Below are positions 23,943 through 28,369 of a stretch of 64,000 nt of DNA, piece after piece. A model generated the notes under the pieces. The model was not told the DNA's origin. It did no database searches and saw only the letters and a list, made by a program, of their open reading frames with translations. The first letter of the stretch is position 1, and the number at the start of each line of letters is the position of its first letter. This stretch comes from Promethearchaeota archaeon (GTDB lineage: Archaea > Asgardarchaeota > Lokiarchaeia > Sigyniarchaeales > SOKP01). Location of the stretch: positions 149,622-213,621 of the forward strand of contig JBHLOY010000006.1 in assembly GCA_048939995.1 (NCBI GenBank), in the 5' to 3' direction. Both the position numbers and the translations under genes were made by a program.

Positions 23943-24776
23943 ATGGAATTATCAGATGATTTGCAATCCAAAATTAAAAATCTTATCTCATATTTAAATA
24001 ATAAAAAAGTGATTGTTGCCTTCTCAGGAGGAGTTGATAGTAGTCTACTTGCATTTCTTTCGAAAAAATATGCTAAGGATACACTTCTTATAACTGAAAA
24101 ATCAATTCTCTATCCTGATGAAGAAATTCAAGAAGCAAGTGAATTTGCAAAAACTTATCATATCTCTCACATCATTATTGAAAGGAACCCGCTTGAGAAC
24201 GATAATTTTAAGAAGAATCCCCATAATCGATGTTATATCTGTAAAACAGGCTTATATAAAGATATAATTAAAATTAAAGATGAAAAGAATTTTGATATTG
24301 TTCTTGATGGTTCAAATCAAGATGATCTCTCCGATTATAGACCAGGAATGCAAGCTTTAAAAGAATTAGGTATTAGTACCCCATATATTGATTTTAAACT
24401 AACAAAACAAGATATAAGAAATATTGCTGAACTCTATAAATTAGAAGTTAAAGCAAAACCTTCTATGGCATGTTATTCATCACGTATTCCTTACAATCAG
24501 CCAATTGATGAAAATAAACTATCTATGATAAGAGAAGCTGAAAATTTCTTAAAAAGTAATTTTAATCTAAAACAATTACGAGTTAGATATCATGATGAAA
24601 GACTAGCGAGAATTGAGCTTTTACAAGAGGATTTAATACAAATTTTAAATAAAGACAACATAGCAAAAATTAAAACTAAATTGAAAGAGTTAGGCTTTTG
24701 TTATATTACGATTGATTTAGAAGGGTTTCGATCCGGTTCATTAAATGAAATTTTATCTTTTACCAATAGAAACTAA
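23943..24776 (+). CDS. larE: LarE-family ATP-dependent sulfur transferase (PP-loop)
   Basis: AFSGGVDSS, RCYICK, DYRPG, PSMACYSSRIPY, DLEGFRSGS. Confidence 0.85.
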   Translation: MELSDDLQSKIKNLISYLNNKKVIVAFSGGVDSSLLAFLSKKYAKDTLLITEKSILYPDEEIQEASEFAKTYHISHIIIERNPLENDNFKKNPHNRCYICKTGLYKDIIKIKDEKNFDIVLDGSNQDDLSDYRPGMQALKELGISTPYIDFKLTKQDIRNIAELYKLEVKAKPSMACYSSRIPYNQPIDENKLSMIREAENFLKSNFNLKQLRVRYHDERLARIELLQEDLIQILNKDNIAKIKTKLKELGFCYITIDLEGFRSGSLNEILSFTNRN

Positions 24777-24885: not shown

Positions 24886-26307
24886 TTATTCATTTTTTTT
24901 CAAATAATTAATAATTTTTTTACGTTTTTCTAACGATCTTAAAGCAGACGCTTCAATTTTTTTTTCCATTATATCCTTTCTTTCAGGGAGTTCCTCTCCA
25001 ACTTCTTGCTTAATCTTTGTGTAAGCTGATTCTCTAAATCTTGGCAATATTGTTTCTGCTTTCTTATCTTTATATATCATTTTTATTTGTTTTGAATCAT
25101 CCACATAACCAATTTCTGCGCATTTTACATTGATTTTTGATAAATCTGAAATTATTTCTTTTGTAATAGATTTAGAACAGTAAATTAGTAGAGCATCTAA
25201 TGAAACACCTAAATAATCAACTCCAACTCTTTCTAGTAAAGCCAAGACTGCTGGATTTACTAATTTTTTTACCTGCTCCTCATAAATTTTAACACCACAC
25301 CCTGCTTCATAATTGATTTCATATAGATCTCCTCTAAGTCCTCCATTTGTAATATCACACATTGCTCTAATTTCTTCTATATAATTCTTTGAAAGAATTT
25401 CTTTACACGCTTCAAGAAATTTAATATTCATCGTTTCGCTTATGATTTCATGATTTCCTGAATATATTGCTGTTGTTGTAATTGTTCCACCCCCTGCCCC
25501 TTCTGTCATCAAAATTTTATCCCCTACTTGAATATTCCGTCTAGCTAAAAGATTATCTTTTAAAATACCTACAGCGCTTACTCCACCAACTAAACGATCT
25601 CCAATCACCATATCTCCTCCGATTCTTAAAGTAGATCCCGCAGTAATGGGTACACTTACTAACTCTGATATAGTTGATATACCAGCCATAAAATCAAAAA
25701 GTTTACCCACATCAGCGTCATCTCCTAGGTGAACATCGACCATAATGGATATTGGTGTTGCACCTTTAACGTATAGATCTCGTAGTGCAGCTCTCGATAC
25801 GCTTCATGTAAACCCATTACATGAAATTACGTGAAAACCACACACAAATGGAAAGTCGCTCAGCCGACTATGGATGCCTTCCATTTTAGATACTATTATA
25901 AGTTCATTTTCAGCTTCAAATCCTTCAATATCAGAAAGTCTTACTGCACCAGCATCATCTAACGAGCTTGGTGATAAAAATGATTTATAATCGGTTTCTG
26001 ACAATTCTGTTACCAACTTATGAACAAAAAAATCCCCTGCTCCTCGGCAACCGACACCCTGCTTACCGATTGTTACACCTGAATTATGAATCTCTAATAA
26101 TTCTCTTACAAATCTATTGGATACATATTTTAAATCACTTTTCTTACACTCTTCTAAGATCGTTTTTGCATATTTCTGGGCAGATTGTAAATCAATATCT
26201 TTAAAATCAAGATATTCTTTGACCAATCTTTTTATAATAACTTCCTCAGAATTTCCTTTTTTCATTAAATTTCTTGTTAAACCTTCTAGATCACTCAAAT
26301 TTTTCAC
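24886..26307 (-). CDS. AIR-synthase (PurM/HypE/SelD superfamily)-related protein, two exons (26307-25827 and 25796-24886), 463 aa after splicing
   Basis: ORFs 25804..26307 and 24886..25743 are in the same frame and are two halves of one PurM-like protein (GVGCRGAGDF, DDAG, GIHSRLSDFPF, RAALRD, DITNGGLRGD); a single TGA inside a 30-nt insert separates them. Confidence 0.85.
25797..25826 (-). other. Putative 30-nt bulge-helix-bulge (tRNA-type) intron in mRNA
   Basis: mRNA reads GUGUGGUUUUC-ACGU-AA^U-UUCAUGUAA-UGGGU-UUACAUGAA-GCGU-AU^C-GAGAGCUGCAC: 11-bp outer helix, 4-bp central helix, two 3-nt bulges, 9-bp inner helix. Confidence 0.8.
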
Positions 26308-26389: not shown

Positions 26390-26754
26390 TTAATTTAGAG
26401 CCTTCTTAATATTATTAAAAAGATTTTCTAGTGTAAATGGCTTACTTTTAAAGCTAGTTACTCAATAGAAAGAATTGCCTCCTTAATTGTTTGGTCTGTA
26501 CTAGCAAATCTAACTTTCGGTTTAACCTTAATTGAATTATTAAAAATTTCCTTAGTTGCTTCAATTCCATTTTTACTTAACATTCAGTGATCCATAATAA
26601 TTCTGTCTGGCTTTTCTGAAAAATTCTTATATATACGAACTGCTTCTTCTCCATTCTTGGCTAATCCAATTACTTCATATCTCCCTAAACTTAATGCTTT
26701 CTCATAAAGAAGTCTCAACAACAAGTCATTCTTTACAATAAACACTCTTGCGAT
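26390..26754 (-). pseudogene. Degraded CheY-like single-domain response regulator
   Basis: Manual translation ARVFIVKND...AKNGEEAV...KPDRIIMDH*MLSKNGIEATKEI...KPFTLENL; in-frame TGA at 26584-26586, a frameshift near 26460, no ATG start. Confidence 0.8.
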
Positions 26755-26969: not shown

Positions 26970-27983
26970 ATGAAAATTAGAATTACGGCTCCATGTAGGA
27001 TTCATCTTTCATTAATAGATGAGAATGGATATACTGGTAGGGTAGATGGGGGTATCGGATTAATGTTAGACCGGCCTAATGTTATCTTTGAGGCGTCTAA
27101 TAATGCTAAGGAATTCAAAATTGAAGCTCACAAATATTATCGTGAGTCTATTGAGGTTATAAATGAGAAAGCTTCGAAGGTTTTCAAAGTATTTAATATT
27201 AGTAATAAAAATTTTCATTTTCACCTTAAAAGATATTATCCAAGTCATGTAGGCCTGGGCTCAAAAACTCAACTATCCTTAGCAATTGCTAGTGCTATTA
27301 TCCTTCTAAAGAAGATTAATAATGTTAAACTAAAGGACTTGACTAAAATTGTAGAACGAGGGGGAACTTCCGGAATTGGATGGCGAGGTTTTGAAAAAGG
27401 AGGCTTTATCTTAGATGCAGGTCACGATTTTGGTGAAGGAAAAGAAAAAGAAACTTTTTTACCTTCTTCTGCTTCAAAAAATGCAGAACCTGCTCTTACT
27501 CTTTTTAGGCATGATATTCCATCAAATTGGAGATTTATTCTAGTGATACCAAGCGTAGGAAAGGGAGCATATGGAGATGATGAAATTGGCATTTTTCAAA
27601 ATTATGCTCCTATACCAAAAGAAGAAGTTAATGAAGTTTCTCACCAGATTTTAATGAAAGTTATACCTGGTATAATAAAGCGAGATTTAAAGTGTTTTGG
27701 GGAGGGTATAAAAAGGATACAAAACATAGGGTTTAAGAAAATTGAAATAAGCCTTCAACATGATATTGTAAAAGATCTTTTGAATTATTTTGAAAATTAT
27801 GGCTTAAAAGCTTATGGAATGTCATCCTTTGGACCTAGTGTTATTGGAATAACTGAATCTGAGTCTGAAGCTAATCTATTATTAAAAGAAGTTCAGATTT
27901 ATCTAAAGGATATTGGAGGTCATATCTATATCTGTAAACCCAATAATTGTGGAGCGAAAATTGAATTTTTAAGTGATGATTAA
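26970..27983 (+). CDS. mptG: Beta-ribofuranosylaminobenzene 5'-phosphate (RFAP) synthase, GHMP family
   Basis: RIHLSLID, GRVDGGIG, HVGLGSKTQ, RGGTSGIG, GMSSFGP. Confidence 0.85.
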   Translation: MKIRITAPCRIHLSLIDENGYTGRVDGGIGLMLDRPNVIFEASNNAKEFKIEAHKYYRESIEVINEKASKVFKVFNISNKNFHFHLKRYYPSHVGLGSKTQLSLAIASAIILLKKINNVKLKDLTKIVERGGTSGIGWRGFEKGGFILDAGHDFGEGKEKETFLPSSASKNAEPALTLFRHDIPSNWRFILVIPSVGKGAYGDDEIGIFQNYAPIPKEEVNEVSHQILMKVIPGIIKRDLKCFGEGIKRIQNIGFKKIEISLQHDIVKDLLNYFENYGLKAYGMSSFGPSVIGITESESEANLLLKEVQIYLKDIGGHIYICKPNNCGAKIEFLSDD

Positions 27984-28369
27984 TGTCGAAAAATAATTTT
28001 AATGAATTTTTTCCTTCAGATCTTTCTGAAAGAGAAAGAGCTTGCTTCGAAATAGGTATAAAGCTTGGAGCACTCTATCATATTTTATGTGGAATTCCTA
28101 TATCTTCAAATAAAGATATTATCGCCTCTATTGAAAGAGGGATAGAAGCTTCTATCTCTTGTCAACCTTATGCTAAAAAAGTTAAAATAAATCTTGATAG
28201 AAGTAAAATTATTGGAGATAAATCAACTGAATTTGCTTATGATGAAATATCTGGTAAAGTAATTGAAGCTGAAGTTGAGCTTCAATATGAAGCAGTAAAT
28301 ATAATAGCAAAAGTTGAATGGATTGAAGATTTAAAATATCCTCTTATGTATATTGAAAAAATAAGTTAA
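27983..28369 (+). CDS. mptD: Archaeal dihydroneopterin aldolase (MptD-type)
   Basis: ERACFEIGIKLGALYH, SISCQPY, LKYPLMYI; coupled to RFAP synthase. Confidence 0.8.
   Translation: MSKNNFNEFFPSDLSERERACFEIGIKLGALYHILCGIPISSNKDIIASIERGIEASISCQPYAKKVKINLDRSKIIGDKSTEFAYDEISGKVIEAEVELQYEAVNIIAKVEWIEDLKYPLMYIEKIS

What the first reader, a model, noticed from the sequence alone, without database searches (positions are those of the whole stretch)
25785..25843. Canonical bulge-helix-bulge intron inside a protein-coding gene of a probable Asgard archaeon
Seen in sequence: the two halves of a PurM/AIR-synthase-like gene are in frame but separated by a 30-nt insert carrying the only stop (TGA, 25804-25806). 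The mRNA reads GUGUGGUUUUC|ACGU|AAU|UUCAUGUAA-UGGGU-UUACAUGAA|GCGU|AUC|GAGAGCUGCAC. That gives an 11-bp exon-exon helix, a 4-bp central helix (ACGU/GCGU), two 3-nt bulges on opposite strands and a 9-bp intron stem. Five pairs are G-U, so the fold works only as RNA on the coding strand. Established: this is the hBHBh' substrate of the archaeal splicing endonuclease EndA, which cuts after the 2nd nt of each bulge; RtcB ligates. Archaeal mRNA introns of this kind are known mainly from crenarchaeal cbf5. Applying the rule removes exactly 25826-25797 and gives GGU UUU CAC GUA ACG AGA GCU GCA CUA CGA GAU = GFHVTRAALRD. This matches my recollection of the uninterrupted family motif, which needs checking. 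Inference: the tRNA-splicing machinery splices this mRNA, possibly as an on/off switch (167-aa truncated product versus 463-aa enzyme), reminiscent of non-spliceosomal HAC1/XBP1 splicing.
Basis: partly seen in the sequence, partly recalled or inferred. Interest (0 to 1): 0.95.

Follow-up and report, generated by a model that had tools for sequence, protein, structure and literature searches.

The report
tRNA-type mini-intron in Asgard enzyme gene
A 30-base insert that breaks an enzyme gene of an Asgard archaeon has the RNA shape that the tRNA-splicing enzymes cut. About 20 related species keep it at the same spot, so the messenger RNA is almost certainly spliced, which papers report for only one other archaeal protein gene (cbf5).

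Summary
On the minus strand, 25785-25843 folds as an exact hBHBh' motif. It has an 11-bp exon-exon helix, a 4-bp central helix, two 3-nt bulges and a 9-bp intron stem (-26.6 kcal/mol, z -4.5).

The host is an uncharacterised PurM-superfamily gene (24886-26307) of a Promethearchaeota (Loki-type Asgard) MAG. TGA is an ordinary stop in this genome.

Twenty species carry an insert at the same site, out of 92 distinct orthologous sequences:
- Fifteen inserts are 30 nt and five are 29 nt. The 29-nt inserts shift the frame, so read-through cannot rescue the gene.
- The stop is TGA or TAA.
- The structure is kept by compensatory changes.
- Cutting after the second nucleotide of each bulge gives GFHV-T-RAA in every case. 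Thr is the residue in 77 of 86 intronless loci.
- Both exons are under purifying selection (dN/dS 0.06-0.20).

The genome encodes two EndA-domain genes and RtcB.

No RNA data could be had, so splicing itself is inferred. The proposed on/off switch has no support. At least five other genes of this genome (fwdA, EF-1alpha, metG, purA, a CoA-transferase) carry similar 30-33-nt inserts.

This scan had already noted such introns on other Asgard DNA and elsewhere in this genome. Verdict: a new member of a known kind, of real interest.

The parts
24886..26307 (-). Host gene: an uncharacterised PurM/AIR-synthase-superfamily protein, 463 aa after splicing. It has an extra N-terminal domain of about 110 aa.
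   Evidence: Pfam AIRS and AIRS_C hits. All NCBIfam hits (ThiL, HypE, PurL, SelD) fall below their cut-offs. The nearest solved structures are HypE proteins. The ESM Atlas neighbours are archaeal 'AIR synthase-related' clusters.
25827..26307 (-). Exon 1 (481 nt). It ends ...CAC GUA A.
   Evidence: dN/dS is 0.08-0.18 between intron-bearing species.
25797..25826 (-). 30-nt BHB intron, holding the in-frame TGA at 25804-25806.
   Evidence: Fold. A same-site insert occurs in 20 species. Covariation. No other copy exists in the genome.
24886..25796 (-). Exon 2 (starts CG AGA GCU...), including the stop codon.
   Evidence: dN/dS is 0.06-0.20 in intron-bearing pairs. This includes a pair whose 29-nt intron puts exon 2 out of frame in the DNA.
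25833..25843 (-). 5' strand of the outer exon-exon helix h (GUGUGGUUUUC).
   Evidence: It pairs with 25785-25795. On average 10.5 of 11 positions pair in intron-bearing alleles, against 5.5 of 11 in intronless ones.
25785..25795 (-). 3' strand of the outer helix h (GAGAGCUGCAC).
25829..25832 (-). Central 4-bp helix H, 5' strand (ACGU).
   Evidence: 98.8% of cells are paired across 20 species.
25799..25802 (-). Central helix H, 3' strand (GCGU).
25826..25828 (-). 5' bulge AAU. The predicted cut lies between 25827 and 25826.
   Evidence: The rule that the cut falls between the 2nd and 3rd bulge residues is stated in PMC2738675.
25796..25798 (-). 3' bulge AUC. The predicted cut lies between 25797 and 25796.
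25803..25825 (-). Intron hairpin h': a 9-bp stem (25817-25825 with 25803-25811) and a 5-nt loop.
   Evidence: 5 of its 9 pairs show compensatory double changes among species.

Best explanation
The 30 nt at 25797-25826 (minus strand) are an archaeal bulge-helix-bulge intron inside the coding sequence of a PurM-superfamily gene.

Inferred mechanism:
1. The pre-mRNA folds into an hBHBh' motif, half of which is built from exon codons.
2. The cell's hetero-oligomeric splicing endonuclease cuts between the 2nd and 3rd nucleotide of each 3-nt bulge. Two EndA-domain genes are present, consistent with an alpha and a beta subunit.
3. RtcB joins the exons and probably circularises the intron.
4. The mature mRNA reads ...CAC GUA ACG AGA... 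and encodes a 463-aa enzyme with the conserved motif GFHV-T-RAALRD.
5. Unspliced RNA would give a 167-aa truncated product.

Shown here: the structure, its conservation and covariation, the need to remove the insert, the match of the predicted junction to intronless orthologs, and the presence of the enzyme genes.

Inferred: the cleavage and ligation themselves, and that splicing is constitutive.

Evolution: the intron was most likely gained once near the base of this genus-level clade and then lost many times. Most losses left exactly the spliced junction (ACG AGR). One looks like a DNA deletion between the short CGUA repeats.
For: 1. Structure. The exact hBHBh' is the minimum-energy fold, with z = -4.46. 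The antisense strand does not form it.
2. Recurrence. 24 of 110 orthologous loci carry an insert at the identical site, which makes 20 distinct species.
3. Removal is required. Five of the inserts are 29 nt, so exon 2 is out of frame in the DNA. The stop is TGA in some species and TAA in others. TGA ends 376 of 2380 long ORFs in this genome.
4. Covariation. 95% of cells are paired, against 29-52% in slid controls. Six pairs have double changes, against 1.7 in shuffles, with 0 of 500 shuffles as high.
5. Exon constraint. The exon-exon helix pairs at 10.5 of 11 positions in intron-bearing alleles and 5.5 of 11 in intronless ones.
6. Junction. The 2nd/3rd-nucleotide rule gives FHVTRA in all 19 distinct intron-bearing alleles. 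Intronless loci read T at 77 of 86, A at 8 and S at 1. The intronless alleles that keep the most exon complementarity carry ACG AGG, the predicted junction.
7. Selection. Exon 1 and exon 2 are both under purifying selection in intron-bearing pairs, with dN/dS 0.06-0.20.
8. Machinery. Two EndA-domain genes and one RtcB gene are in the genome. Asgard EndA is reported as the (alpha-beta)2 type with the L1 loop (PMC5829648). ARAGORN finds introns in 12 of the 20 tRNA genes it detects.
9. Real DNA. Contigs of four separate studies contain the insert.
Against: No RNA evidence exists. No listed public run that holds this DNA is an RNA run, so cleavage, ligation and the exact junction are unobserved.

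One intronless ortholog (L098) reads GUA UCG AGA (Val-Ser-Arg), with the same exon flanks as the intron-bearing alleles. Ser is therefore tolerated at this position, and the Thr match does not by itself fix the cleavage register.

Two alleles have relaxed motifs. L087 has a 3-bp central helix, and L095 has an irregular inner stem.

In an organism that may couple transcription to translation, ribosomes could reach the motif before it is cut. How that is avoided is unknown.
Confidence: 0.88

Rival explanations
1. Programmed translational bypassing, as in phage T4 gene 60. The peptidyl-tRNA-Val would leave the GUA codon at 25829-25827 and re-pair with the second GUA (25800-25798). This skips 29 or 30 nt including the stop, and the product reads Val-Ser-Arg.
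For: Most alleles have matched GUA codons on both sides of the insert, with a hairpin between them. Bypassing would also repair the 29-nt alleles. One intronless ortholog (L098) encodes exactly Val-Ser-Arg.
Against: The matched codons are a by-product of the near-palindromic central helix ACGU/GCGU.
- They are broken in L061, where the take-off codon is GUU, and in L087, where GGA sits at the landing site. Both genes remain intact.
- L095 would get Ala by this route.
- Bypassing needs no 11-bp exon-exon helix. Yet that helix is kept at 10.5 of 11 pairs only in insert-bearing alleles.
- The predicted Ser is found in 1 of 86 intronless loci, against 77 with Thr.
- No stop codon directly follows the take-off codon.
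Confidence: 0.04
2. The intron is real, but its removal is conditional. On this view it is a regulatory on/off switch for the enzyme, giving a truncated 167-aa or a full 463-aa product, as the first reader suggested by analogy with HAC1/XBP1.
For: The insert sits in a conserved motif, so unspliced RNA yields an inactive protein. A negative-regulator role was once proposed for the cbf5 intron (PMC2738675).
Against: There is no sensor, no condition-dependent element and no conserved sequence beyond what the BHB needs.
- 72 of 92 distinct orthologs do without the intron, and it was lost at least about 10 times.
- Similar mini-introns interrupt EF-1alpha, metG, purA and fwdA in the same genome. 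Those are housekeeping genes for which an off state is implausible.
Confidence: 0.1
3. The insert is not removed. On this view the gene is a pseudogene, or is split by a small palindromic mobile insertion with a CGUA target duplication. Alternatively the stop is read through or recoded.
For: The insert is flanked by a short direct repeat (CGUA) and is largely palindromic. A neighbouring response-regulator gene does carry a private nonsense TGA.
Against: - Both exons are under purifying selection in 20 species, with no other stop or frameshift.
- The 29-nt alleles rule out read-through.
- TAA alleles and normal use of TGA as a stop rule out recoding.
- The element has no second copy in the genome.
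- Excision at the repeat would give Ser rather than the conserved Thr.
Confidence: 0.02

Closest known systems
BHB intron of the cbf5 (pseudouridine synthase) pre-mRNA in Crenarchaeota (Watanabe 2002; Yoshinari 2006; Yokobori 2009, PMC2738675)
   Same: - It is a short intron inside a protein-coding sequence.
- It folds as a BHB motif, with cuts predicted between the 2nd and 3rd bulge residues.
- It lies in a conserved catalytic-region motif.
- The host has a hetero-oligomeric EndA.
- Its distribution is patchy, with inferred secondary losses, possibly by way of spliced mRNA.
   Different: - The gene is different: a PurM-superfamily enzyme, not cbf5.
- The phylum is different: Promethearchaeota (Asgard), not Thermoproteota.
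- The motif here is a strict canonical hBHBh', whereas most cbf5 introns are relaxed.
- It is one of several such introns in the same genome.
- There is no cDNA confirmation here.
Archaeal tRNA and rRNA BHB introns and processing stems (EndA and RtcB substrates)
   Same: The RNA motif and the presumed enzymes are the same. This genome's tRNA genes are heavily interrupted (bioRxiv 10.64898/2026.10.13.758758).
   Different: Here the exon half of the motif is made of codons. Protein sequence and RNA structure therefore constrain the same bases, and the product is an mRNA that must stay in frame.
BHB-dependent processing in the 5' UTR of a Haloferax volcanii mRNA (Schwarz et al. 2020, PMC7714728)
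   Same: EndA acts on an mRNA.
   Different: That case lies in an untranslated region of a euryarchaeon. I could not re-read the passage, because one search failed on a term format. This intron lies inside the ORF and is needed for the reading frame.
IRE1/RtcB unconventional splicing of HAC1/XBP1 mRNA in eukaryotes
   Same: It is spliceosome-independent removal of a short intron from an mRNA. Cleavage by a protein endonuclease is followed by joining by a tRNA ligase (RtcB in animals), and removal changes the protein product.
   Different: The endonuclease is IRE1 and the substrate is a pair of 7-nt-loop hairpins, not a BHB. That system is stress-regulated, and no regulation is shown here.

Membership tests
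Archaeal BHB (splicing-endonuclease) intron | [quoted passage not shown] | tested here: met
   Minimum-energy and centroid fold. The central helix is paired in 98.8% of cells across 20 species.
Archaeal BHB (splicing-endonuclease) intron | Flanking helices h (exon-exon) and h' (intron) in the strict hBHBh' form | tested here: met
   An 11-bp h and a 9-bp h'. They are 95.9% and 92.0% paired across species, and h' has 5 pairs with double changes.
Archaeal BHB (splicing-endonuclease) intron | Cutting between the 2nd and 3rd bulge nucleotides restores a functional, in-frame product | tested here: met
   All 19 distinct alleles, with 29- or 30-nt inserts, give FHVTRA. This equals the consensus of the intronless orthologs. 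The rule is taken from PMC2738675.
Archaeal BHB (splicing-endonuclease) intron | The host encodes a splicing endonuclease and an RtcB-type ligase | tested here: met
   PF01974 matches in two genes (98.7 and 71.8 bits) and PF01139 in one gene (559 bits).
Archaeal BHB (splicing-endonuclease) intron | Excision observed in RNA (spliced cDNA, circular intron) or cleavage shown in vitro | not testable with these tools
   No RNA run is listed for this DNA.
cbf5 pre-mRNA intron family of Crenarchaeota | Located in cbf5, at the codon of the catalytic Asp | tested here: not met
   The host is a PurM-superfamily gene. The intron therefore works like the cbf5 intron but is not a homolog of it.
Programmed translational bypass (T4 gene 60 type) | Matched take-off and landing codons in every functional allele | tested here: not met
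   GUA and GUA match in most alleles. L061 has GUU at take-off and L087 has GGA at the landing site.
IRE1-type unconventional mRNA splicing (HAC1/XBP1) | Twin hairpins with conserved 7-nt loops at both splice sites | tested here: not met
   The splice sites lie in 3-nt bulges of a single BHB. IRE1 itself was not searched for.

The most novel reading that the evidence does not exclude
This intron may be one visible member of a genome-wide set of ~30-nt EndA-type mini-introns in protein-coding genes of Promethearchaeota. At least six occur in this genome, including EF-1alpha and MetRS, and they often sit inside the most conserved motifs. If so, routine mRNA splicing by the tRNA machinery would be a normal layer of gene expression in the closest archaeal relatives of eukaryotes. 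Introns would be inherited for long periods and then erased precisely, apparently through the spliced mRNA.
Probability: 0.55. Interest if true: 0.85.

Novelty: new member of a known kind. Interest (0 to 1): 0.7.

Why it matters
In the papers I could search, splicing of an archaeal protein-coding sequence by the tRNA endonuclease is confirmed for one gene only, cbf5 of Crenarchaeota (PMC2738675). I found none reporting it for Asgard archaea.

This case matters for four reasons:
- **A second gene in a key phylum.** It adds a canonical, well-conserved intron in another gene, in the phylum closest to eukaryotes.
- **Strength of evidence.** The comparative evidence is unusually clean: 29- and 30-nt alleles, covariation, and exon codons constrained by RNA pairing.
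- **Annotation.** Gene callers split such genes or label them pseudogenes, so Asgard proteomes are systematically mis-annotated at these sites.
- **Evolution.** The patchy distribution offers a tractable system for studying intron gain, mRNA-mediated intron loss, and how splicing coexists with translation in a cell without a nucleus.

Tried and rejected
- **TGA recoding or selenocysteine.** Rejected. TGA is a normal stop in this genome, some alleles have TAA, and some inserts are 29 nt.
- **Known RNA families or tRNAs in the window.** Rfam and ARAGORN found nothing.
- **RNA evidence.** No RNA holder is listed among the 23 runs. Only DNA contigs could be laid.
- **Strict genome-wide BHB plus ORF-fusion scan.** It gave 16 hits. 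Only this site folds as a BHB. Read in frame, C13:242985-243014 is the boundary between two adjacent genes, the downstream one starting with a hydrogenase-like N-terminal motif. The long candidates (89-199 nt) do not fold as BHB and were taken to be intergenic regions without further checks.
- **Relaxed scan.** It gave 199 hits against 168 in a mirror-geometry control, so it is mostly noise and cannot be used as a census. It did recover the fwdA intron.
- **Mobile-element idea.** blastn-short finds no second copy of the intron or motif in the genome.
- **Stop flagged in the G005 ortholog (L005).** tblastn shows no stop inside the aligned coding region, so this is not a second intron site.
- **Split match in G032.** Not followed up.
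- **Tree.** The careful maximum-likelihood tree did not finish within the time limit. The quick IQ-TREE tree was used instead.
- **Haloferax paper.** A look-up in PMC7714728 failed on a term format and was not repeated.

Full report
**1. What is in the sequence**

The minus strand between 24886 and 26307 holds one gene in two same-frame ORFs. One ORF is 167 aa (25804-26307) and the other 285 aa (24886-25743). Read through, the product is a PurM/AIR-synthase-superfamily protein with a single stop, the TGA at 25804-25806.

- an 11-bp helix made of exon sequence on both sides;
- a 4-bp central helix, ACGU/GCGU;
- 3-nt bulges AAU and AUC on opposite strands;
- a 9-bp intron stem with a 5-nt loop.

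This is both the minimum-energy and the centroid structure (-26.6 kcal/mol). Shuffles average -14.3, z is -4.46, and none of 200 shuffles folds as well. Five of the pairs are G-U. The complementary strand accordingly forms only the palindromic hairpin (-11.5 kcal/mol, z -1.7).

The order of elements on each strand, read 5' to 3', is helix, central helix, bulge, helix. This is the geometry of the anticodon-arm BHB of pre-tRNAs (my derivation from tRNA numbering). The cleavage rule, between the 2nd and 3rd bulge residues, is stated for cbf5 in PMC2738675. Applying it removes 25797-25826 and leaves a 463-codon ORF reading ...GFHV-T-RAALRD....

**2. Organism and genetic code**

The window is part of a 3.75-Mb, 38-contig genome with 30.5% G+C. 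TGA ends 376 of 2380 long ORFs, so it is an ordinary stop. Orthologous loci from species-representative genomes are nearly all titled Promethearchaeota or Promethearchaeia MAGs. That is the phylum of the Loki-type Asgard archaea.

**3. Comparative evidence**

I collected 110 orthologous loci from whole-genome searches, giving 92 distinct sequences. Twenty-four loci (20 distinct species) carry an insert at exactly this site. Four points follow.

- **Insert length.** Fifteen inserts are 30 nt, but five are 29 nt (L067, L081, L089, L092, L094). In those five, the two halves of the gene lie in different frames of the DNA. No read-through or recoding can therefore rescue them, and the insert must be taken out. 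The stop inside the insert is TGA in some species and TAA in others.
- **Covariation.** The proposed structure is paired in 95% of cells across the 20 sequences, against 29-52% when partners are slid by 1-3 columns. Six pairs show changes on both sides, five of them in the intron stem. Shuffles give 1.7, and none of 500 reaches the observed value. Eighteen of the 20 sequences fold into the two-bulge arrangement on their own, four of them with an irregular inner stem. L087 and L095 do not.
- **Exon constraint.** The exon half of the motif is visibly constrained. The 11 exon-exon positions pair at 10.5 of 11 on average in intron-bearing alleles and at 5.5 of 11 in intronless ones. These species are related, so the P value there overstates independence.
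- **Junction.** The BHB rule gives FHVTRA in all 19 distinct intron-bearing alleles, whatever their length. Intronless loci read Thr at that position in 77 of 86 cases, Ala in 8 and Ser in 1. Simply deleting the in-frame 30 nt would give Ser.

**4. The gene is functional**

Between intron-bearing species, dN/dS is 0.09-0.17 over the whole gene. It is 0.06-0.20 for exon 1 and exon 2 taken separately. That includes the L081/L092 pair, which has the 29-nt, frame-shifting intron. There is no other stop or frameshift in any allele. Exon 2 is therefore translated in frame with exon 1.

**5. The insert is real DNA and is not a repeat**

Contigs from four separate studies (mangrove, sediment, soil and another metagenome) cover the insert with no indel. 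One strain variant changes a U-A pair of the stem to U-G and changes a loop base. The intron has no second copy in the genome.

**6. Machinery**

The genome has two genes with the catalytic EndA domain, each in an open frame of about 208 aa, and one RtcB gene. Two EndA genes fit the (alpha-beta)2 enzyme with the L1 loop reported for Asgard and TACK archaea. That is the type associated with broad substrate range and with cbf5 splicing (PMC5829648). ARAGORN detects only 20 tRNA genes, 12 of them with introns. This is in line with the heavily interrupted tRNA genes described for Asgard archaea (bioRxiv 10.64898/2026.10.13.758758).

**7. History**

All six orthologs examined from other families of the order lack the intron.

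On a quick maximum-likelihood tree of 91 spliced proteins, intron presence needs at least about 10 changes. Intron-bearing alleles often branch at the base of intronless clades. The introns share sequence and site, so one gain near the base of this genus-level clade followed by many losses is the simplest reading.

Two kinds of loss are visible:
- The intronless alleles that still keep 9 of 11 exon-helix pairs mostly carry ACG AGG, the predicted spliced junction. This fits replacement by a copy of the spliced mRNA, as proposed for cbf5.
- One allele (L098) carries GUA UCG AGA. That is what a DNA deletion between the CGUA repeats would leave.

L098 also shows that Ser is tolerated. The Thr match is therefore strong support for the cleavage register, but not proof of it.

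**8. Rivals**

- **Ribosomal bypassing.** Hopping from GUA to GUA would also repair both insert lengths. However, the codon match is broken in L061 and L087, it predicts the rare Ser, and it does not explain the conserved 11-bp exon helix. I give it 0.04.
- **Pseudogene, mobile insertion or read-through.** Excluded by the evidence in sections 3-5. I give this 0.02.
- **Regulated on/off switch.** Nothing supports it. Most orthologs lack the intron. The same genome also has similar 30-33-nt inserts with BHB-like folds in other genes:
  - fwdA (C17:377423-377452), recovered by my relaxed scan;
  - EF-1alpha, inside the P-loop codons;
  - metG, before the HIGH motif;
  - purA, inside the P-loop;
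  - a CoA-transferase.

  I found the last four by following leads from earlier notes of this scan and reading the sequences myself. Those five were checked only at the level of sequence and single-sequence folds.

**9. Host gene**

The protein belongs to the PurM superfamily but to none of its named families. ThiL, HypE, PurL and SelD all score far below their cut-offs. The nearest solved structures are HypE proteins. Atlas neighbours are archaeal 'AIR synthase-related' clusters, mostly from methanogens. The gene converges on a LarE-type sulfur transferase gene and lies two genes from beta-RFAP synthase of the methanopterin pathway. Its function is unknown.

**10. Comparison with what is known**

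It works like the cbf5 pre-mRNA intron of Crenarchaeota. It is not homologous to that intron, because the gene and the phylum differ. It is a member of the general class of archaeal BHB introns on every sequence-level criterion. The one criterion not met is direct RNA or enzymatic evidence, which I could not obtain.

In the library I searched, I found no paper reporting BHB introns in Asgard protein-coding genes.

This scan's own earlier notes report the same phenomenon on other Asgard DNA and elsewhere in this genome. One note concerns what looks like the same PurM gene in another genome, read there as a possible recoding site.

**11. Verdict**

Confidence that this is an EndA/RtcB-spliced mRNA intron is 0.88. 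It is a new member of a known kind. Interest is 0.7, mainly because of the lineage, the quality of the comparative evidence, and the sign that such introns are common in these genomes.

Noticed in passing
window 26461-26745 (-), TGA at 26584-26586: A small CheY-like receiver gene next to the host gene has an in-frame TGA (..IIMDH*MLSKNGIEA..). There is no insertion relative to the family pattern and no BHB fold. Five close orthologs in same-genus genomes, three of which lie beside the PurM-like gene, have no stop and longer ORFs. The stop is therefore a private nonsense mutation, a decaying gene or a sequencing error, and not an intron.
   Followed up: yes
G000:C17:377423-377452 (-): A 30-nt hBHBh' insert in fwdA, between ..TGDGPW and EFALHH... 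It has a CAUG/CAUG central helix, a 10-bp intron stem, and 330 and 248 codons on the two sides. My relaxed scan recovered it, and an earlier follow-up of this scan reported it.
   Followed up: partly
G000: about C11:167313-167345 (-), C6:82172-82203 (+), C38:64707-64737 (+), C7:109896-109925 (-): Four more genes are broken by BHB-like inserts of 30-33 nt that carry stops or shift the frame:
- EF-1alpha, inside GHIDHG|KST;
- metG, at ..PYVNA|IPHLGN;
- a CaiB-type CoA-transferase, at ..VIKVE|PPPFGE;
- purA, at WGD|EGKGK.
All four sit in the most conserved motif of their protein. They were read and folded as single sequences only, and the coordinates are my own arithmetic.
   Followed up: partly
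G000:C6:7264-7398 (-): A stray fragment of about 57 aa from a paralog of the host gene (..SKMEGNHSRLSDFPFICGFYV-T-SAALRE..). It spans the intron site without an intron and has Thr at the junction. It lies in non-coding-looking surroundings. It may be the remnant of an old intronless or processed copy.
   Followed up: partly
L098 (JBHLJZ010000085.1), junction region: The only intronless ortholog with Ser at the junction (GUA UCG AGA). It has the same exon flanks as intron-bearing alleles and keeps 9 of 11 exon-helix pairs. It looks like a recent genomic deletion of the intron between the CGUA repeats. This would be a second route of intron loss beside the ACG AGR (spliced-junction) alleles.
   Followed up: partly
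G000, whole genome: ARAGORN finds only 20 tRNA genes in a genome that is 98% complete, and 12 of them have introns. Many tRNA genes are probably too interrupted to be detected.
   Followed up: no
window 23943-24776 (+) and 26970-28369 (+): The host gene converges on a LarE-type sacrificial sulfur transferase gene (277 bits). It lies near beta-RFAP synthase (348 bits), which is followed by an unassigned 128-aa ORF overlapping it by one base. Earlier notes of the scan report the same PurM-like gene beside methanopterin genes in other genomes.
   Followed up: no
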